From positions 12,896,001 through 12,960,000 of the forward strand of contig CM022674.1 of assembly GCA_012295275.1 (NCBI GenBank): 64,000 nucleotides of DNA, written 5' to 3'. The notes beneath the pieces were generated by a model. The model was not told the origin of the DNA. It saw only the letters and a list, made by a program, of their open reading frames with translations, and did not search any database. Positions 3,448 through 63,051 of this stretch are shown in pieces (the first letter of the stretch is position 1; every line of letters begins with the position of its first letter). A program made the position numbers and the translations under genes. The DNA comes from Chrysomallon squamiferum. Taxonomy: Eukaryota > Animalia > Mollusca.

Positions 3448-4081
3448 CAACGTTATTGTTGAGCAAGATGACGCAGCGGATATCATTTTCAATTAGTCTT
3501 ATGGAAAGTAGTCTGAATGTTTTGACATCCGGTCACCATGATAGATGAATTCCCATTGGTCCCCAGGGCAGTTGGTAAGATGCTCCTTTCCGTAATAAAT
3601 TTTATTTCATGACTGTTTTTATCAGTGTCAGAATCTGGCCCGGGGGCTTCGTTTCTTTTTGCTTAAGAATGTATTTAGTAAACCCTAAATAAGATTTCTG
3701 TTGTTTTTATTTGCTGTGAGGTATAAATTATTACTCCGTGGCCAGTTTACAGTGAAACCTGACTTTAACAGAAGAGTTAATAACAGGTCACCAGTTCATT
3801 AGGAAACTAAGATTTAGAATTGTCAGAAATATTTTAAACAACCATCTGAATTGTAAAGGGAAGTAGAGAGATAGCTAGACTGAATATTATGAATAATTGG
3901 AAGCATTTTAGACTTTTTGTTATATATTTTTTTTTTCTTTTTATAAAAAATATGTGTGTGTGTGTATGTGTGTGTGTGTGTGCGCGCGTCTAAGACTGTT
4001 TATGAAACGAAGTTTCTATTGTAGATTCTGTATGCTACAATATAGTTTTAATTATAATAGTATTTTATGTAATATACGCCT

Positions 4082-7057: not shown

Positions 7058-7687
7058 AGTGGCAGAAATATTACAACTCTTTCTATATCTTCCAGTTTGT
7101 ATTGCTACACGTTGCACTACAGCTGATGTTTGGGTAAAATATTTATTAATGCCAGCATCATGATGATCATGATGATAATTATCATTATTATTATTATTAT
7201 TATTATTTCTATTATCCAACAAAAGCTAACTTGTATTAATTTTAGCAATATCAACATCATCATCATCATCATCATCATCATCATTATTATTTCTATTATC
7301 GAACAAAAGCAATCTCCGTAGCCAAAACCACAACTACCATCAGTACTATAACATCTACTACTTCTACGATAACTGCCAATAGTACCTCTGCTGTTTCTTT
7401 TACCACTACTGCGGCTGCTACTACTGCTGCTACTACTACTACTTCGATTTCTACCACCATTACTGTTATGATTATAACTGGCATCACTACTTCGTCTAGA
7501 CATAATTATTTTATTTGCGGACAGATACACAAATATACACACTGGTGTTCACGTAGTTGTCATTCGACGTTACGACAGACGTTGTGCTGAAGATGTTGTC
7601 GTTCTGTCAGAGGAGGCCATACTTGTCTGTATGTGTTTTGTATCATGAGACAGTGTGTCCTCCCTTGAGAGAGTCGACAAATCCTAC

Positions 7688-7940: not shown

Positions 7941-8104
7941 GAAAAGAGACATGATATACGGAAATTACATTTCTTACATGAAAGCATGTACAAATTATTT
8001 GCTTCCTTTATTCTGAAGAAACTGATGTAAAACGCGGGTGAGTGGGTTCAATACTCAGTACCGAACTAAAAATGTCAGGCGACTTTTCTCAGGGCGTACA
8101 GTCT

Positions 8105-8318
8105 GTCTCCATGGTAACTAACACTCATGAGACAGTGTGTCCTCCCTCAGACTCTGTGTTGCCAATAGCAACAAACAAGAAGAACAACGGAGAACAAAAG
8201 TAAGAAAGAAAGAAAGAAAGAAGGAAAGAGAAAACAGCGGATTACAAGAATGGGACAGAGATTCGGAGAAGTGAAAGAAGAAAAGAAAGAAAGAAACGAG
8301 AATTATGTATACAGAGAG

Positions 8319-11570: not shown

Positions 11571-11580
11571 GTATAAAAAT
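11571..11580 (+). promoter_or_regulatory. Candidate TATA box GTATAAAAAT of the receptor genes
   Basis: About 105 bp upstream of the ATG in copies 1, 2, 4, 5, 6 and 7 (11571, 17718, 28517, 31661, 36961, 41126), conserved across both upstream haplotype classes. Confidence 0.55.
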
Positions 11581-11677
11581 CGATAACCAAAACAAACACT
11601 ATTACAAGAACACACGTACAAATGTCAGTTAGCTCGCGAGCGCCGACTAAACAGGCAGAAAGGTTTTCGACGAAAAA

Positions 11678-12838
11678 ATGAAGAATCTCGTAATACTGTG
11701 GATTCTGTTTGTAACTTCTCAAGGACTCGACAAAAACAGAACGTTACAATTACGTCACATGCTGCTGGATAACTATTCACGTGCCGTGCAGCCGACTTCC
11801 GGTAGTCAAAAACTTCTTTTGAAATTGCAACTAATTCCACTTTCTATTGTAGAACTTGATCAAACGAAGCAGACGTTCACTGTTCTTGCACACGTGTTTG
11901 TCACGTGGTTAGATCGAGAACTGGCGTGGAACGGAAGTGAATTCTCCGATGTGAAAACTTTATCTGTGCAACTGGATGACGTTTGGTGGCCGAAGTATCA
12001 AATTACTAATTCGGTTGACCGTGTTACTGGGCAGACTCTGTATTCGTCTATCCTGCTAATCAAGAACGGACAGGTAATCCACGGATCAACTGACGTGTTC
12101 AAAACTATTTGTACAGTTGACCTTACAAGGTATCCTTTCGACACGCAAGACTGTGCAATTATATTTTCGTCGTCGTCGTTGGACTACGATTACAGCGATC
12201 TCAATTCCAGTCTGCTAGACACTCGTCACGATTACTTCACGGAAACTAACGAATGGCTTTTGATCGATTTTTATTCCTTCACGAAAACTGCCGATTTCAG
12301 CGGGATCCCTATGGTTGAGTTTCATTTCAAACTTCGGCGACATTCGGTTTACTACGTACTCACGATCATACTGCCTGTAAGTCTTCTGTCAATTCTTGAT
12401 GCTTTTGTGTTTCTGCTTCCTGTCGAGTCAGGAGAGAAGATGTCTTTTCTCATCTCCATAATGCTGTCCTTCGCCGTCTATCTCAACTTCATTAATGACG
12501 TCATGCCCAAGTCGAAACAGGTTTCCAAACTGGCTGCTTACCTCGTTCTCGCACTCGCTCAAACCACCATTTCCATCATTATAACTATATGCACGTTAGA
12601 TGTCTATCACCGTGGCAACCGTAGTAGCCTCACCGACAAGAATAAAATAATTGGAACGCGTTCGTTTGCTGATGACGACACAAAAGAAGAGAAGACAACT
12701 GCGGAATTTTGTGGAAAACACTTCGTGAAAACGACTCAAAATGTCGCTCGTGCTCCATCAGCGCGCAAACTGAATTTGATTCTGTTTTCTGTGTTTCTGA
12801 TGTCTGCTTTGTTAAGCCCTTTTCTATTTTTAGTATGA
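11678..12838 (+). CDS. Atypical nAChR-like Cys-loop ligand-gated cation channel subunit, copy 1 (intronless, 386 aa)
   Basis: Signal peptide, WxD and WxP motifs, Cys-loop C145-x13-C159 with YPFD, LRR before TM1, GEK before TM2, four TM helices and no vicinal Cys in loop C. Confidence 0.93.
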   Translation: MKNLVILWILFVTSQGLDKNRTLQLRHMLLDNYSRAVQPTSGSQKLLLKLQLIPLSIVELDQTKQTFTVLAHVFVTWLDRELAWNGSEFSDVKTLSVQLDDVWWPKYQITNSVDRVTGQTLYSSILLIKNGQVIHGSTDVFKTICTVDLTRYPFDTQDCAIIFSSSSLDYDYSDLNSSLLDTRHDYFTETNEWLLIDFYSFTKTADFSGIPMVEFHFKLRRHSVYYVLTIILPVSLLSILDAFVFLLPVESGEKMSFLISIMLSFAVYLNFINDVMPKSKQVSKLAAYLVLALAQTTISIIITICTLDVYHRGNRSSLTDKNKIIGTRSFADDDTKEEKTTAEFCGKHFVKTTQNVARAPSARKLNLILFSVFLMSALLSPFLFLV

Positions 12839-17823: not shown

Positions 17824-18984
17824 ATGAAGAATCTCGTAATACTGTGGATTCTGTTTGTAACTTCTCAAGGACTCGACAAAAACAGAACGTTACAATTACG
17901 TCACATGCTGCTGGATAAATATTCACGTGCCGTGCAGCCGACTTCCGGTAGTCAAAAACTTATTTTGAAATTGCGACTAATTCCACTTTCTGTTGTAGAA
18001 CTTGATCAAACGAAGCAGACGTTCACTGTTCTCGCACACGTGATTGTCACGTGGTTAGATCGAGAACTGGCATGGAACGGAAGTGAATTCTCCGATGTGA
18101 ATACTTTATCTGTGCAACTGGATGACGTTTGGTGGCCGAAGTATCAAATTACTAATTTGGTGGACCGAGTTACTGGGCAGTCTCTGTATACGTCTATCCT
18201 GCTAATCAAGAACGGACAGGTAATATACAGATCAAATGAATTGTTCAAAACTATTTGTACAGTTGACCTTACAAGGTATCCTTTCGACACGCAAGATTGT
18301 GCAATTATATTTTCGTCATCGTCGTTGGACTACGATTACAGCGATCTCAATTCCAGTCTGCTAGACACTCGTCACGATTACTTTACGGAAACTAACGAAT
18401 GGCTTTTGATAGATTTTTATTCCTTCACGAAAACTGCCGATATAAGCGGGATGTCTATGGTTGAGTTTCATTTCAAACTTCGGCGACATTCGGTTTACTA
18501 CGTACTCACGATCATACTGCCTGTAAGTCTTCTGTCAATTCTTGATTCTTTTGTGTTTCTGCTTCCTGTCGAGTCAGGAGAGAAGATGTCTTTCCTCATC
18601 TCGATAATGCTGTCCTTCGCCGTCTATCTCAACTTCATTAATGACGTCATGCCCAAGTCGAAACTGGTTTCCAAACTGGCTGCTTACCTCGTTCTCGCAC
18701 TCGCTCAAAGCGCCATTTCCATCATTATAACTATATGCACGTTAGATGTCTATCACCGTGGCAACCGTACTAGCTTCACCGACAAGAATAAAATAATTCC
18801 AACTCGTTCGTCTGCTGATGACAACTCAAAAGAAGAGAAGACAACTGCGGAATTTTGTGGAAAACACTTCGTGAAAACGACTCAAAATGTCGCTCGTGCT
18901 CCATCAGCGCTCAAACTGAATTTGATTCTGTTTTCTGTGTTTCTGATGTCTGCTTTGTTGAGCCCTTTGCTATTTTTAGTATGA
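17824..18984 (+). CDS. Atypical nAChR-like Cys-loop channel subunit, copy 2
   Basis: Intact 386-aa ORF with the same motifs as copy 1. Confidence 0.93.
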   Translation: MKNLVILWILFVTSQGLDKNRTLQLRHMLLDKYSRAVQPTSGSQKLILKLRLIPLSVVELDQTKQTFTVLAHVIVTWLDRELAWNGSEFSDVNTLSVQLDDVWWPKYQITNLVDRVTGQSLYTSILLIKNGQVIYRSNELFKTICTVDLTRYPFDTQDCAIIFSSSSLDYDYSDLNSSLLDTRHDYFTETNEWLLIDFYSFTKTADISGMSMVEFHFKLRRHSVYYVLTIILPVSLLSILDSFVFLLPVESGEKMSFLISIMLSFAVYLNFINDVMPKSKLVSKLAAYLVLALAQSAISIIITICTLDVYHRGNRTSFTDKNKIIPTRSSADDNSKEEKTTAEFCGKHFVKTTQNVARAPSALKLNLILFSVFLMSALLSPLLFLV

Positions 18985-25449: not shown

Positions 25450-26612
25450 ATGAAGAATCTCGTAATACTGTGGATTCTGTTTGTAACTTCTCAAGGACTC
25501 GACAAAAACAGAACGTTACAATTACGTCACATGCTGTTGGATAACTATTCACGTGCCGTGCAGCCGACTTCCGGTAGTCAAAAACTTATTTTGAAATTGC
25601 GACTAATTCCACTTTCTATTGTAGAACTTGATCAAACGAAGCAGACGTTCACTGTTCTCGCACACGTGATTGTCACGTGGTTAGATCGAGAACTGGCATG
25701 GAACGGAAGTGAATTCTCCGATGTGAATACTTTATCTCTGGAACTGGATGACGTTTGGTGGCCGAAGTATCAAATTACTAATTCGGTTGACCGTGTTACT
25801 GGGCAGACTCTGTATTCGTCTATCCTGCTAATCAAGAACGGACAGGTAATCTACTTATCAACTGACGTGTTCAAAACTATTTGTACAGTTGACCTTACAA
25901 GGTATCCTTTCGACACGCAAGACTGTGCAATTATATTTTCGTCGTCGTCGTTGGACTACGATTACAGCGATCTCAATTCCAGTCTGCTAGACACTCGTCA
26001 CGATTACTTCACGGAAACTAACGAATGGCTTTTGATCGATTTTTATTCCTTCACGAAAACTGCCGATTTAAGCGGGATCCCTATGGTTGAGTTTCATTTC
26101 AAACTTCGGCGACATTCGGTTTACTACGTACTCACGATCATACTGCCTGTAAGTCTTCTGTCAATTCTTGATGCTTTTGTGTTTCTGCTTCCTGTCGAGT
26201 CAGGAGAGAAGATGTCTTTTCTCATCTCCATAATGCTGTCCTTCGCCGTCTATCTCAACTTCATTAATGACGTCATGCCCAAGTCGAAACAAGTTTCCAA
26301 ACTGGCTGCTTACCTCGTTCTCGCACTCGCTCAAAGCGCCATTTCCATCATTATAACTATATGCACGTTAGATGTCTATCACCGTGGCAACCGTAGTAGC
26401 TTCACCGACAAGAATAAAAAATAATTCCAACTCGTTCGTCTGCAGATGACAACACAAAAGAAGAGAAGACAACTGCGGAATTTTGTGGAAAACACTTCGT
26501 GAAAACGACTCAAAATGTCGCTCGTGCTCCATCAGCGCGCAAACTGAATTTGATTCTGTTTTCTGTGTTTCTGATGTCTGCTTTGTTAAGCCCTTTGCTA
26601 TTTTTAGTATGA
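25450..26612 (+). pseudogene. Cys-loop channel subunit, copy 3; +2 frameshift in the M3-M4 loop removes TM4
   Basis: A6 at 26416-26421 versus A4 in the other copies gives a stop at 26424; the normal C-terminus continues out of frame to 26612. The upstream TATA reads TACAAAAA. Confidence 0.7.
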
Positions 26613-28623: not shown

Positions 28624-29784
28624 ATGAAGAATCTCGTAATACTGTGGATTCTGTTTGTAACTTCTCAAGGACTCGACAAAAACAGAACGTTACAATTACG
28701 TCACATGCTGCTGGATAACTATTCACGTGCGGTCCAGCCGACTTCCGGTGGTCATAAACTTCCTTTGAAGTTGCGACTCCTTCCACTTTCTATTGTAGAA
28801 CTTGATCAAACGAAGCAGACGTTCACTGTTCTCGCACACGTGTTTGTCACGTGGTTAGATCCAGAACTGGCATGGAACGGAAGTGAATTCTCCGATGTGA
28901 ATACTTTATCTCTGGAACTGGATGAAGTTTGGTGGCCGAAGTATCAAATTACTAATTCGGTTGACCGAGTTACTGGGCAGACTCTGTATTCGTCTATCCT
29001 GCTAATCAAGAACGGACAGGTAATCTACGGATCAACTGACGTGTTCAAAACTATTTGTACAGTTGACCTTACAAGGTATCCTTTCGACACGCAAGACTGT
29101 GCAATTATATTTTCGTCGTCGTCGTTGGACTACGATTACAGCGATCTCAATTCCAGTCTGCTAGACACTCGTCACGATTACTTCACGGAAACTAACGAAT
29201 GGCTTTTGATCGATTTTTATTCCTTCACGAAAACTGCCGATTTAAGCGGGATCCCTATGGTTGAGTTTCATTTCAAACTTCGGCGACATTCGGTTTACTA
29301 CGTACTCACGATCATACTGCCTGTAAGTCTTCTGTCAATTCTTGATGCTTTTGTGTTTCTGCTTCCTGTCGAGTCAGGAGAGAAGATGTCTTTTCTCATC
29401 TCCATAATGCTGTCCTTCGCCGTCTATCTCAACTTCATTAATGACGTCATGCCCAAGTCGAAACACGTTTCCAAACTGGCTGCTTACCTCGTTCTCGCAC
29501 TCGCTCAAAGCGCCATTTCCATCATTATAACTATATGCACGTTAGATGTCTATCACCGTGGCAACCGTAGTAGCCTCACCGACAAGAATAAAATAATTCC
29601 AGCTCGTTCGTCTGCTGATGACGACACAAAAGAAGAGAAGACAACTGCGGAATTTTGTGGAAAACAGTTCGTGAAAACGACTCAAAATGTCGCTCGTGCT
29701 CCATCAGCGCGCAAACTGAATTTGATTCTGTTTTCTGTGTTTCTGATGTCTGCTTTGTTAAGCCCTTTGCTATTTTTAGTATGA
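28624..29784 (+). CDS. Atypical nAChR-like Cys-loop channel subunit, copy 4
   Basis: Intact 386-aa ORF with the same motifs. Confidence 0.93.
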   Translation: MKNLVILWILFVTSQGLDKNRTLQLRHMLLDNYSRAVQPTSGGHKLPLKLRLLPLSIVELDQTKQTFTVLAHVFVTWLDPELAWNGSEFSDVNTLSLELDEVWWPKYQITNSVDRVTGQTLYSSILLIKNGQVIYGSTDVFKTICTVDLTRYPFDTQDCAIIFSSSSLDYDYSDLNSSLLDTRHDYFTETNEWLLIDFYSFTKTADLSGIPMVEFHFKLRRHSVYYVLTIILPVSLLSILDAFVFLLPVESGEKMSFLISIMLSFAVYLNFINDVMPKSKHVSKLAAYLVLALAQSAISIIITICTLDVYHRGNRSSLTDKNKIIPARSSADDDTKEEKTTAEFCGKQFVKTTQNVARAPSARKLNLILFSVFLMSALLSPLLFLV

Positions 29785-41232: not shown

Positions 41233-42393
41233 ATGAAGAATCTCGTAATACTGTGGATTCTGTTTGTAACTTCTCAAGGACTCGACAAAAACAGAACGTT
41301 ACAATTACGTCACATGCTGCTGGATAACTATTCACGTGCCGTGCAGCCGACTTCCGGTGGTCATAAACTTCTTTTGAAGTTGCGACTAGCTCCACTTTCT
41401 ATTATCGAACTTGATCAAACGAAGCAGACATTCACTGTTCTCGCACACGTGAGTGTCACGTGGTTAGATCGAGAACTGGCGTGGAACGGAAGTGAATTCT
41501 CCGATGTGAAAACTTTATCTCTGGAACTGGATGACGTTTGGTGGCCGAAGTATCAAATTACTAATTTGGTGGACCGAGTTACTGGGCAGTCTCTGTATAC
41601 GTCTGTCCTGCTGATCAAGAACGGACAGGTAACATACAGATCAAATGAACTGTTCAAAACTATTTGTACAGTTGACCTTACAAGGTATCCTTTCGACACG
41701 CAAGACTGTGCAATTATATTTTCGTCGTCGTCGTTGGACTACGATTACAGCGATCTCAATTCCAGTCTGCTAGACACTCGTCACGATTACTTCACGGAAA
41801 CTAACGAATGGGTTTTGATAGATTTTTATTCCTTCACGAAAACTGCCGATATAAGCGGGATGTCTATGGTTGAGTTTCATTTCAAACTTCGGCGACATTC
41901 GGTTTACTACGTACTCACGATCATACTGCCTGTAAGTCTTCTGTCAATTCTTGATGCTTTTGTGTTTCTGCTTCCTGTCGAGTCAGGAGAGAAGATGTCT
42001 TTTCTCATCTCCATAATGCTGTCCTTCGCCGTCTATCTCAACTTCATTAATGACGTCATGCCCAAGTCGAAACGCGTTTCCAAACTGGCTGCTTACCTCG
42101 TTCTCGCACTCGCTCAAAGCGCCATTTCCATCATTATAACTATATGCACGTTAGATGTCTATCACCGTGGCAACCGTAGTCGCTTCACCGACAAGAATAA
42201 AATAATTCCAACTCGTTCGTCTGCTGATGACGACACAAAAGAAGAGAAGACAACTGCGGAATTTTGTGGAAAACACTTCGTGAAAACGACTCAAAATGTC
42301 GCTCGTGCTCCATCAGCGCGCAAACTGAATTTGATTCTGTTTTCTGTGTTTCTGATGTCTGCTTTGTTAAGCCCTTTGCTATTTTTAGTATGA
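41233..42393 (+). CDS. Atypical nAChR-like Cys-loop channel subunit, copy 7
   Basis: Intact 386-aa ORF with the same motifs. Confidence 0.93.
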   Translation: MKNLVILWILFVTSQGLDKNRTLQLRHMLLDNYSRAVQPTSGGHKLLLKLRLAPLSIIELDQTKQTFTVLAHVSVTWLDRELAWNGSEFSDVKTLSLELDDVWWPKYQITNLVDRVTGQSLYTSVLLIKNGQVTYRSNELFKTICTVDLTRYPFDTQDCAIIFSSSSLDYDYSDLNSSLLDTRHDYFTETNEWVLIDFYSFTKTADISGMSMVEFHFKLRRHSVYYVLTIILPVSLLSILDAFVFLLPVESGEKMSFLISIMLSFAVYLNFINDVMPKSKRVSKLAAYLVLALAQSAISIIITICTLDVYHRGNRSRFTDKNKIIPTRSSADDDTKEEKTTAEFCGKHFVKTTQNVARAPSARKLNLILFSVFLMSALLSPLLFLV

Positions 42394-44062: not shown

Positions 44063-44614
44063 ATGGCGCAAAATGTGAATGTTGTTGTCGCTGTGAGCAA
44101 AAATAAAGGAATCGGATTTGAGGGAACAATTCCCTGGCGTCTTAGGAAGGACCTGGCAATGTTTAAAACTATAACGTTAAAAACCACCGATGAAAATAAG
44201 CAAAATGCTGTCATAATGGGCCGAAAAACATGGCTTTCTATTCCGGCGAAGTTCCGACCACTGCCGAATCGCCAGAACATTGTCTTAAGCACTACATTGA
44301 GTGAATTACCAAAAGATGTTCATCTAGCAAACAGTTTTAAAAAAGCAATGGATTTAGTTTCGTGCGGAAAGCTTGCCGATGTTGTGGAAAATGTGTTTGT
44401 TATCGGTGGAAGTTCCGTGTACAGAGAAGCAATGGCTTGGCCGAAGTGTCGAATTTACTTGACGCGAATTTTGGCGGAATTCGAATGTGATGTTTTTTTC
44501 CCAAATATTGACGAAAACAGTTTTAGAAAAGTTGATAATCCTGAATGGTTGCCAAGTACACCTCAGCATGAAGGTGATTTAACATTTATTTACGAAGTTT
44601 ATGATAAAATGTAA
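44063..44614 (+). CDS. DHFR: Dihydrofolate reductase, uninterrupted CDS, 183 aa
   Basis: GIG..G.IPW, D at the catalytic acidic position (RKDLAMF), VIMGRKTW.SIP, RPLPNR.NIVLS, VIGGSSVY, IYLTRI and CDVFFP; ATG in AAAATGG context at 44063. Confidence 0.95.
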   Translation: MAQNVNVVVAVSKNKGIGFEGTIPWRLRKDLAMFKTITLKTTDENKQNAVIMGRKTWLSIPAKFRPLPNRQNIVLSTTLSELPKDVHLANSFKKAMDLVSCGKLADVVENVFVIGGSSVYREAMAWPKCRIYLTRILAEFECDVFFPNIDENSFRKVDNPEWLPSTPQHEGDLTFIYEVYDKM

Positions 44615-60906: not shown

Positions 60907-63051
60907 CATCTAAACCAATAATCCACATATACTGACATATAATTATGATAAAGCAATATGAACACTTAATTCTGATGAGGGCAGACACCTCTTACTCTCA
61001 GATTAGGTACACAGAATAGATCAATTCATTTATTTACTAGTTTTTAATTTTTTTTTTATTATTAATAAAAAAAAATTTTTTTGGGGTTATTGAGGTTTTG
61101 TTGTTATTAATTTATTTAATATATTTGTTTTGGGGGTTGTTGAGGTTTTGTTGTTGTTTTTTAGTATTAATTTATTTAATATATTTGTTTTGGGGGTTGT
61201 TGAGGTTTTGTTGTTGTTTTTTTAGTATTAATTTATTTAATATATTTGTTTTGGGGGTTGTTGAGTTTTTGTTTTTTGTTGTTTTTTAGTATTAATTTAT
61301 TTAATATATTTGTTTTGGGGGTTGTTGAGGTTTTTTGTTGTTTTTTAGTATTAATTTATTTAATATATTTGTTTTGGGGGTTGTTGTTTTTTTTTTTTTT
61401 TTGTTTTTTTATTATTAATTTATTTAATATATTTGTTTTGGGGTTGTTGAGTTTTTTGTTGTTGTTTTTAGTATTAATTTATTTAATATATTTGTTTTGG
61501 GGATTGTTGAGGTTTTTTTGTTGTTGGTTTTTTGTTGTTTTGTTGTTGTTTTTAGTATTAATTTATTTAATATATTATTTGTTTTTGGGGTTGTTGAGTT
61601 TTTTTTTGTTGTTTTTTATTTAATTTATTTAATATATTTGTTTTGGGGTTGTTGTTGTTGGGTTTTTTGTTTTTTTGTTTTTTTATTAATTTATTAATTT
61701 ATTTAATATATTTATTTTTGGGGGTTGTTTGGTTTTTTTTGTTGTTTTTAGTATTAATTTATTTAATATATTTGTTTTGGGGATTGTTGAGGTTTTGTTG
61801 TTGTTTTTTAGTATTAATTTATTTAATATATTTGTTTTGGGGGTTGTTGAGGTTTTTTGTTGTTTTTTAGTATTAATTTATTTAATATATTTGTTTTGGG
61901 GGTTGTTGAGGTTTTGTTGTTGTTTAGTATTAATTTATTTAATATATTCAAAAATGTATGTTAACAGCCTCCTTCAGGAATTAGACCTCAAATGTTTAAG
62001 ACGCTGATTGGCAAAGGACATCCAGAATTTTCAACAAAACGACAACAAGACTCCCAGGAATTCTTTCTACATCTTCTTAACCTGGTAGAGGTGAGTTTCA
62101 GTGTTCAGTTCTTATATCTCATCATCCTGGATATTCAGTGTTCTGTTCTTATATCTCATCATCCTGGATATTCAGTGTTCTGTTCTTATATCTCATCATC
62201 CTGTATATTCAGTGTTCTGTTCTTATATCTCATCATCCTGTATATTCAGTGTTCTGTTCTTATATCTCATCATCCTGGATATTAAGTGTTCTGTTCTTAT
62301 ATCTCATCATCCTGGATATTAAGTGTTCTGTTCTTATATCTCATCATCCTGTATATTCAGTGTTCAGTTCTTATATCTCATCATCCTGTATATTCAGTGT
62401 TCTGTTCTTATATCTCATCATCCTGGATATTCAGTGTTCTGTTCTTATATCTCATCATCCTGGATATTAAGTGTTCAGTTTTTATATCTCATCATCCTGG
62501 ATATTAAATGCTTGGTTTTTATATCTCATCATCCTGGATATTCAGTGTTCTGTTCTTATATCTCATCATCCTGGATATTAAGTGTTCAGTTTTTATATCT
62601 CATCATCCTGGATATTAAATGCTTGGTTTTTATAATTATATAATCCTCAATATTCAGTGCATAAACATAATTGTACAGAGCCATTAGAGAACTAAATAAA
62701 CAGAAAAGAAAACTGTTGTCCAAAACTAAATATCATTTTATAATAATGTTGTCATGTTAATGAATTTGTATCAGTATTTTGTTATTTTGAGGTTTAGTAA
62801 ACATATTTTTATTTTTATTTTCCCCACTGAGAACTCTTTGTTTGATTCACTAAGATACTGATGAAATAACAGCTGCCTGAAAGGAAAAGATTTAACAGAA
62901 GCTTCGATAGAAAAAGAAAAAAAATTATATATTTTTCATGATCATATTGTAATATGGAGAAGTGTTTGTTTTGTTATTGTTATTGTTTTTGTTTTTGTTT
63001 TTTGAATTTATTTTATTTTATTTCATGGTGTATTTAATTTTTTGTATTTTA

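What the first reader, a model, noticed from the sequence alone, without database searches (positions are those of the whole stretch)
11828..12310. Paralogue differences concentrate on the orthosteric pocket while the pore is frozen
Across copies 1-7: residue 53 is I/I/I/L/L/L/A (beta1, loop G), 74 is F/I/I/F/F/F/S (loop D), 135-136 are HG/YR/YL/YG/HG/YG/YR and 138-140 TDV/NEL (loop E), 207 is F/I/L/L/L/L/I and 210-211 IP/MS (loop C). The signal peptide, Cys-loop and TM2 are identical in all copies. Codons 134-140 of copy 1 versus copy 2 differ at 6 bases, 5 of them non-synonymous. Inference: diversifying selection tuning ligand specificity, with possible combinatorial heteropentamers.
Basis: partly seen in the sequence, partly recalled or inferred. 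Interest (0 to 1): 0.8.

Follow-up and report, generated by a model that had tools for sequence, protein, structure and literature searches.

The report
Snail receptor array varies at pocket
Seven near-identical tandem copies of an acetylcholine-receptor-like ion channel gene, likely from a marine snail, differ about five times more often at predicted ligand-pocket positions than elsewhere in the outer domain, which likely reflects moderate selection for new ligands as is already known for octopus touch-taste receptors.

Summary
The listed residue states are all correct. The locus is a seven-copy tandem array of intronless, non-alpha nAChR-like subunits; the nearest relatives are gastropod proteins (52%), the acetylcholine aromatic box is lost, and copy 3 is frameshifted. 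Against 21 literature-defined pocket positions, 8 of 21 vary versus 23 of 184 other extracellular codons (p=0.006); the signal lies on the complementary face (51, 53, 74, 134, 136). But the pocket holds only 14 of 63 amino-acid-changing mutations; the cytoplasmic loop holds 16, and the most variable codon (281, M2-M3 gating linker) was missed. '5 of 6 non-synonymous' is the neutral expectation (p=0.51) and belongs to one haplotype shared by copies 2 and 7. Gene conversion is strong and inflates codon tests: the M2a/M1a statistic was matched by 5 of 134 no-selection simulations. Pocket dN/dS is about 1.6-2.6, with p from 0.004 to 0.19 depending on the baseline. Verdict: pocket enrichment is real, positive selection is probable but unproven, and ligand tuning and heteropentamers are untested. 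Both the array type and pocket diversification are known in molluscs.

The parts
11678..12838 (+). Copy 1, intronless nAChR-like subunit, 386 aa
17824..18984 (+). Copy 2, 386 aa; carries the second loop E/loop C haplotype
25450..26612 (+). Copy 3; 2-base insertion in an A-run at 26419-26420, stop at codon 325, no M4 (pseudogene or sequencing error)
28624..29784 (+). Copy 4, 386 aa
31768..32928 (+). Copy 5, 386 aa
37067..38227 (+). Copy 6, 386 aa
41233..42393 (+). Copy 7, 386 aa; most divergent pocket (A53, S74, T134, R136, I207, M210, S211)
11828..11836 (+). Residues 51 and 53, beta1/loop G, complementary face (Torpedo delta 36 and 38)
11897..11899 (+). Residue 74, loop D (delta 59, alpha7 Q57 position); H72 at the loop D Trp position is invariant
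12077..12097 (+). Residues 134-140, loop E; 134 and 136 are listed pocket positions (delta T119, L121), 135 and 138-140 are neighbours
12296..12310 (+). Residues 207-211, tip of a shortened loop C without vicinal cysteines
12110..12154 (+). Cys-loop C145-C159, no amino-acid change, 1 synonymous change
12434..12505 (+). M2 pore helix with GEK cation-type motif; 0 non-synonymous, 2 synonymous changes
12518..12520 (+). Residue 281, M2-M3 linker, Q/L/Q/H/Q/R/R; aligns to muscle alpha 269-270
12608..12763 (+). M3-M4 cytoplasmic loop, 16 non-synonymous and 4 synonymous changes (ratio 1.2, neutral-like)
18157..18456 (+). Codons 112-211 of copy 2: 11 variants shared only with copy 7
41566..41865 (+). 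Codons 112-211 of copy 7: same shared haplotype

Best explanation
This is a seven-copy tandem array of intronless nicotinic-receptor-like channel subunits whose copies are mosaics of each other, likely through gene conversion, and whose amino-acid differences are enriched on the predicted complementary face of the ligand pocket, likely because selection favours pocket variants for ligands other than acetylcholine. Shown: the array, loss of the acetylcholine-binding residues, mosaic structure, an invariant pore, pocket enrichment, and raised synonymous divergence in the extracellular domain. Inferred: conversion homogenises the coding sequence, selection resists it around loops G, D, E and C, and conversion reshuffles the variants into new combinations. 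Predicted and untested: the subunits form cation channels gated by environmental or microbial small molecules; residues 53, 74, 134, 136, 207 and 210 set specificity; residue 281 tunes gating; copies co-assemble.
For: Pfam LBD and TM domains, pLGIC fold. T110, S166 and H72 replace loop A Tyr, loop B Trp and loop D Trp, with no loop C Cys pair. 211 of 406 informative-site pairs are incompatible, Rm=10, clustering p about 0.002. Mean pairwise difference is 0.6-6.4% per 100-nt bin in the CDS vs 9-27% upstream of -100. Pocket 8/21 vs 23/184; 14 changes on 45 sites vs 24 on 402. With every pocket codon neutral plus conversion, 14 or more occurred in 0.3-0.4% of 3,500-3,900 simulations per setting. 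Against 18 equally variable non-pocket columns, pN is 0.31 vs 0.10 (p=0.03 on counts, 0.13 on codons). Synonymous density 0.165 extracellular vs 0.059 TM (p=0.03), the divergence-peak pattern described in PMC3924837 (passages). Four named gastropod paralogue pairs: 9 complementary-face differences vs 5.0 expected (p=0.047); one abalone pair differs at exactly 53, 74 and 134, with 0 of 76 TM differences.
Against: Whole-gene ratio 0.63, extracellular 0.51. Tree-free mixture p=0.15-0.20. Site-model statistics were reached by 5 of 134 and 3 of 37 no-selection simulations. Against local synonymous changes p=0.16-0.19 (21 positions) and 0.06 (10 positions); counting double-base changes once gives p=0.13 and 0.048. 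Principal face not enriched (3/11, p=0.22). The pocket list was drawn from papers after the variants had been seen, and 5 sets x 3 baselines were tried. The Gigantopelta pair has 0 of 20 pocket differences; pooled 21-position test p=0.075. 8 of 12 sites flagged by the partitioned M2a fit are outside the pocket list. No expression or ligand data.
Confidence: 0.58

Rival explanations
1. Relaxed constraint plus gene conversion: the pocket lost its function with the acetylcholine box, its residues drift neutrally, and an old haplotype (copies 2 and 7) plus uneven conversion makes the clusters.
For: Pocket columns are hypervariable across 131 relatives (entropy 3.45 vs 2.66). The cytoplasmic loop has a similar number of changes. 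The 11 variants shared only by copies 2 and 7 are 9 non-synonymous and 2 synonymous by the codon table, close to neutral. Local-baseline tests are not significant. One copy is frameshifted.
Against: A fully neutral pocket rarely gives the observed counts (p about 0.003) or three multi-hit complementary codons (p 0.002-0.003). M2 and Cys-loop purifying selection shows a maintained channel (M2: 0 seen, 6.4 expected).
Confidence: 0.27
2. Selection is real but acts on assembly, gating or escape from an antagonist rather than on agonist choice: the variable residues sit at the subunit interface, and the top codon is a gating position.
For: Codon 281 has four amino acids and aligns to alpha 269-270; hydrophobic changes at alphaS269 raise the gating equilibrium about 92-fold without changing binding (PMC2233691 abstract). 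The same complementary residues contact a peptide antagonist in AChBP/alpha7 (PMC8692984 passages).
Against: Position 57 (here 74) is a shown small-agonist selectivity determinant in alpha7 (PMC2755872 passages). 281 does not vary in the named paralogue pairs where it is present.
Confidence: 0.11
3. The differences are assembly artefacts: read errors or two haplotypes laid in tandem.
For: The copy 3 insertion is in a homopolymer. 52 of 81 biallelic sites are singletons. The copy 2/7 variants are not among the rows shown for the runs laid (20 rows hidden, contigs drop variants).
Against: Contigs of three runs from three studies (one may be the source) carry variants at codons 47, 51, 53, 97 and 98; variants at 135 and 207 appear in two runs and one run. 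Copies 2 and 7, 23 kb apart, share 11 variants. No long block over 98% identity. Errors would not spare M2 and the Cys-loop; singletons are 40 N to 21 S, below neutral.
Confidence: 0.04

Closest known systems
Expanded intronless, tandem molluscan nAChR genes (Jiao et al. 2019, PMC6896357; abstract and part 2 of Results read)
   Same: Intronless, tandem arrays of up to 12 genes, mostly non-alpha with degenerate acetylcholine sites; diverse ligands proposed.
   Different: The array tables read are for bivalves; the passages read give no codon-level or gene-conversion analysis. This array is gastropod-type and 92-98% identical in protein.
Cephalopod chemotactile receptors CRT1/CRB1 (review PMC11526382 section 4.2; preprints 10.1101/2025.10.28.685082 and 10.1101/2025.03.03.641191, passages)
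   Same: nAChR-derived, insensitive to acetylcholine, positively selected sites concentrated in the orthosteric pocket, homo- and heteropentamers. The reported invariant inner pocket with variable outer rim resembles invariant 72/166/167 with variable 53/136/207 (residue equivalence not checked by alignment).
   Different: No closer to CRT1 (Z 18.6, rmsd 4.0, 278 aligned, 23%) than to alpha7 (Z 23.1, rmsd 4.1, 328 aligned, 25%). Here function, ligands and tissue are unknown, and the selection signal is weak and confounded by conversion.
Gastropod short non-alpha nAChR-like clade (Gigantopelta XP_041377404/5, XP_041364424; Haliotis XP_067664208/9, XP_048241791, XP_046576424/32)
   Same: Nearest relatives (31-52%), same M2 motif, degenerate pocket, same-contig paralogue pairs with nearly fixed TM domains.
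   Different: Only automatic names; the Gigantopelta pair shows no pocket differences and one member is truncated.
Divergence peaks under gene conversion, e.g. red/green opsins (PMC3924837, passages)
   Same: Homogenised copies with locally raised divergence around candidate functional sites.
   Different: Here seven copies from one assembly, with no population or outgroup data.

Membership tests
Cys-loop pentameric ligand-gated channel, nAChR-like | Ligand-binding plus transmembrane domains and 13-residue Cys-loop | tested here: met
   PF02931 and PF02932 above cut-off in copies 1 and 7; C145-C159; fold matches
Cys-loop pentameric ligand-gated channel, nAChR-like | Four transmembrane helices | tested here: met
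   Model of copy 1 has four long helices; copy 3 lacks M4
Cys-loop pentameric ligand-gated channel, nAChR-like | Cation-type M2 (GEK ring, 9' Leu) | tested here: met
   Alignment to alpha4/beta2 M2; meaning of the motif recalled
Cys-loop pentameric ligand-gated channel, nAChR-like | Pentamer assembly and ligand-gated current | not testable with these tools
   Needs expression and electrophysiology
Acetylcholine-binding alpha subunit | Vicinal cysteines in loop C | tested here: not met
   Loop C tip has no cysteine
Acetylcholine-binding alpha subunit | Aromatic box Y93, W149, Y190, Y198 (and W55 on the other face) | tested here: not met
   T110, S166, F/I/L207, I/M210, H72
Expanded intronless molluscan nAChR arrays | Intronless coding sequence in a tandem array | tested here: met
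   Seven single-ORF copies on one strand, 3.1-7.6 kb apart
Expanded intronless molluscan nAChR arrays | Molluscan host and relatives | tested here: met
   Nearest named relatives are gastropod; mir-1994 pair in the window; host lineage is an inference
Cephalopod chemotactile receptors | Member of the CR or CR-like clade | tested here: inconclusive
   No identified CR sequence was available for the tree; structure scores do not favour CRs
Cephalopod chemotactile receptors | Loss of acetylcholine-binding residues | tested here: met
Cephalopod chemotactile receptors | Positive selection concentrated in the pocket | tested here: inconclusive
   Enrichment significant; dN/dS above 1 depends on baseline
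Cephalopod chemotactile receptors | Expression in sensory epithelium and gating by poorly soluble compounds | not testable with these tools
   Only one low-depth contig from a metatranscriptomic library covers part of the gene; not proof of transcription

The most novel reading that the evidence does not exclude
A gastropod lineage has independently turned intronless nicotinic subunits into a chemosensory channel family, convergent with octopus chemotactile receptors, and this array catches it diversifying: gene conversion shuffles complementary-face, loop C and gating-linker variants among copies, and mixed pentamers multiply the ligand pockets.
Probability: 0.25. Interest if true: 0.72.

Novelty: new member of a known kind. 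Interest (0 to 1): 0.42.

Why it matters
The ligands and purpose of the many orphan nicotinic-like receptors of molluscs are an open question; only the cephalopod branch is explained in the papers read here. An array whose copies differ by 7-36 amino-acid-changing bases, with a fixed pore and a handful of pocket differences, is a ready natural mutant series: copy 7 against copy 5 isolates pocket function. If the copies detect different compounds, ionotropic chemosensation from nAChRs extends to gastropods. If not, the locus is an ordinary array and a caution that gene conversion fakes positive selection.

Tried and rejected
No whole genome is held, so family size and orthologues could not be counted. 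PAML and HyPhy are not on the script machine; own GY94 M0/M1a/M2a fits were used, M7/M8 and MEME were not run, and the four segments were chosen by eye. The nominal M2a p-values (2e-7 whole tree, 9e-5 partitioned) were rejected as invalid under conversion (one search crashed and gave no null result). '5 of 6 non-synonymous' was rejected as evidence. Per-pair longest-identity-run tests had a best p of 0.009 among 21 pairs, weak after correction. CRT1 and CRB1 were not among the top 60 rows of the PDB sequence searches, so no residue-level comparison was possible. No pentamer model was built: pocket mapping rests on alignments and a monomer model (mean pLDDT 74, loop F under 50). Loop F positions D174/E176 and AChBP E149 were left out of the pocket list as unalignable. 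In the runs laid, one contig covers loops E and C and the copy 2/7 haplotype is not shown; contigs drop variants, so this is no evidence of absence; read support for copy 7 stays open. Allard 2023 and Kang 2023 were not held and are cited through a review; bioRxiv supplements with CR site lists were not seen. Paper searches listed nothing on this array or on pocket selection in gastropod nAChR-like genes; most subscription journals are not searched. Three look-ups of earlier scan notes were empty. 42 of 173 proteins were dropped by length before the tree. Pairs P0058/P0173 and the P0047 cluster had 0 and 2 extracellular differences and were left out of the pooled test.

Full report
What is there. 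Seven same-strand ORFs start at 11678, 17824, 25450, 28624, 31768, 37067 and 41233, 3.1-7.6 kb apart, with no further copy in the window. Six encode 386 aa; copy 3 has a 2-base insertion in an A-run and stops at codon 325, before M4. They are Cys-loop channel subunits. The nearest proteins are from the snail Gigantopelta aegis (52%), then abalone; a tree of 131 relatives of suitable length (42 of 173 dropped) puts the copies with the Gigantopelta pair at support 1.0. A gastropod host is therefore inferred. The acetylcholine site is degenerate: T110, S166 and H72 stand at the loop A Tyr, loop B Trp and loop D Trp, and loop C is short with no cysteine pair.

The observation. All residue states quoted are correct, as are the 6 and 5 base counts. 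In the alignment to Torpedo delta residue n equals delta n-15, so 51, 53, 72, 74, 134 and 136 fall on delta 36, 38, W57, 59, T119 and L121; the alpha7 numbering (n-17) and the AChBP-to-alpha7 equivalence of loop G are recalled. I took 21 pocket positions from passages of two papers (PMC2755872; PMC8692984), after I had seen the variants. Eight of 21 vary, against 23 of 184 other extracellular codons (p=0.0056); 14 non-synonymous changes on 45 sites vs 24 on 402; no other of 205 circular shifts scores as high. The complementary face carries it (5 of 10, 10 changes, p=0.008); the principal face does not (3 of 11, p=0.22). Against 18 non-pocket columns that are equally variable in the family the excess remains on counts (p=0.03) but not on codons (p=0.13).

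51 of 386 positions vary; the pocket holds 14 of 63 non-synonymous changes and the cytoplasmic loop 16. The most variable codon is 281 (Q/L/Q/H/Q/R/R) in the M2-M3 linker, aligned to muscle alpha 269-270, a gating control position (PMC2233691 abstract). Five of six non-synonymous is neutral expectation (p=0.51), and those changes belong largely to one haplotype: copies 2 and 7 alone share 11 variants across codons 112-211. The pore is under purifying selection (0 changes, 6.4 expected if neutral, 2 synonymous), but that is usual for the family: M2 differs at 5 of 23 positions from Gigantopelta vs 95 of 203 extracellular positions. Codons 1-29 are identical even in DNA.

Gene conversion. 211 of 406 pairs of informative sites are incompatible, at least 10 exchanges are needed, and neighbouring sites are more compatible than shuffled ones (p about 0.002). 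Coding sequences differ by 18-49 of 1158 bases, while upstream DNA beyond -100 differs by 9-27% on average. Synonymous density is higher in the extracellular domain than in the TM domain (23/139 vs 5/84, p=0.03; simulated p 0.008-0.019). A local divergence peak under conversion is the described signature of selection keeping copies different; the same review warns that conversion fakes positive selection (PMC3924837 passages).

Is dN/dS above 1? Whole gene 0.63, extracellular 0.51. My M2a vs M1a fits give 30.5 on one tree and 18.6 on four segment trees, with about 6-7% of codons at omega 6.6-8.1; 4 of the 12 flagged sites in the partitioned fit are listed pocket positions (53, 74, 136, 207). 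Simulations without positive selection but with conversion exceeded the nominal cut-off in 51-91% of runs and reached 30.4 in 5 of 134 (0/45, 0/45, 5/44) and 18.6 in 3 of 37. A tree-free mixture test gave p=0.15-0.20. The targeted test is stronger: with all 21 pocket codons neutral, 14 or more changes arose in 0.3-0.4% of simulations; scaled to extracellular synonymous changes p=0.04-0.05 (complementary face 0.009-0.014); scaled to codons 43-141 p=0.16-0.19 (0.06); counting double-base changes once p=0.13 (0.048). Several sets and baselines were tried, so this is moderate evidence.

Replication in relatives. Of four named same-contig paralogue pairs, Haliotis rufescens has 5 of 20 pocket vs 9 of 174 other differences (p=0.008); H. 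asinina differs at 53, 74 and 134 with 0 of 76 TM differences (3/21 vs 22/175, not significant); H. rubra has 7/21 vs 43/174; and Gigantopelta 0/20 vs 9/175, with one member truncated. Pooled: 15 vs 10.4 expected (p=0.075); complementary face 9 vs 5.0 (p=0.047).

Artefact check. Contigs of three DNA-type runs from three studies, one possibly the source, show several of the variants (codons 47, 51, 53, 97, 98; 135 in two runs; 207 in one). The copy 2/7 haplotype and the copy 3 insertion were neither confirmed nor excluded. One RNA-library contig covers 11998-12255 at depth 4.4, which does not prove transcription.

Mechanism and standing. Most likely the array evolves in concert, purifying selection fixes pore and Cys-loop, and selection keeps and reshuffles variants lining the complementary face and loop C tip, giving four or five pocket types among seven copies for a ligand other than acetylcholine (0.58). 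Relaxed constraint with conversion is the main rival (0.27). Intronless tandem nAChR arrays with degenerate sites are described for molluscs (PMC6896357); pocket-focused selection and heteropentamers are described for cephalopod CRs (PMC11526382; preprints); a CR-like clade reaching gastropods is reported (PMC13174522 section 3.4.4). The array works like a plausible CR analogue but CR membership is untested. New member of a known kind; interest 0.42.

Noticed in passing
window 7606-7670 and 8087-8152 (+): Two mir-1994 precursors above the Rfam gathering score, flanking a 17-base tandem repeat, about 3.5 kb upstream of copy 1.
   Followed up: no
window 44063-44614 (+): Intronless dihydrofolate reductase ORF (PF00186, E 3e-38) 1.7 kb downstream of copy 7.
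   Followed up: no
window 12518-12520 and equivalents: Codon 281 in the M2-M3 linker has five codons and four amino acids among seven copies; aligns to the gating position alpha 269-270.
   Followed up: partly
window 26419-26420: 2-base insertion in an A-run truncates copy 3 before M4; pseudogene or read error. The Gigantopelta paralogue P0001 is also truncated, within M2.
   Followed up: partly
window 11578-11764 and equivalents: The last 100 bases before the ATG (mean difference 2.6%) and codons 1-29 (no difference) are far more alike than DNA further upstream.
   Followed up: partly
window 17917-17919: Copy 2 loses the N32 glycosylation sequon (N to K) present in the other six.
   Followed up: no
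window 62097-62659 and 61105-61948: 37-base (14 copies) and 59-base tandem repeat arrays at the window's end.
   Followed up: no
P0015-P0018 and other long hits: Many top hits are 600-1500 aa proteins with 2-7 matched stretches, likely fused annotations of other tandem arrays.
   Followed up: no
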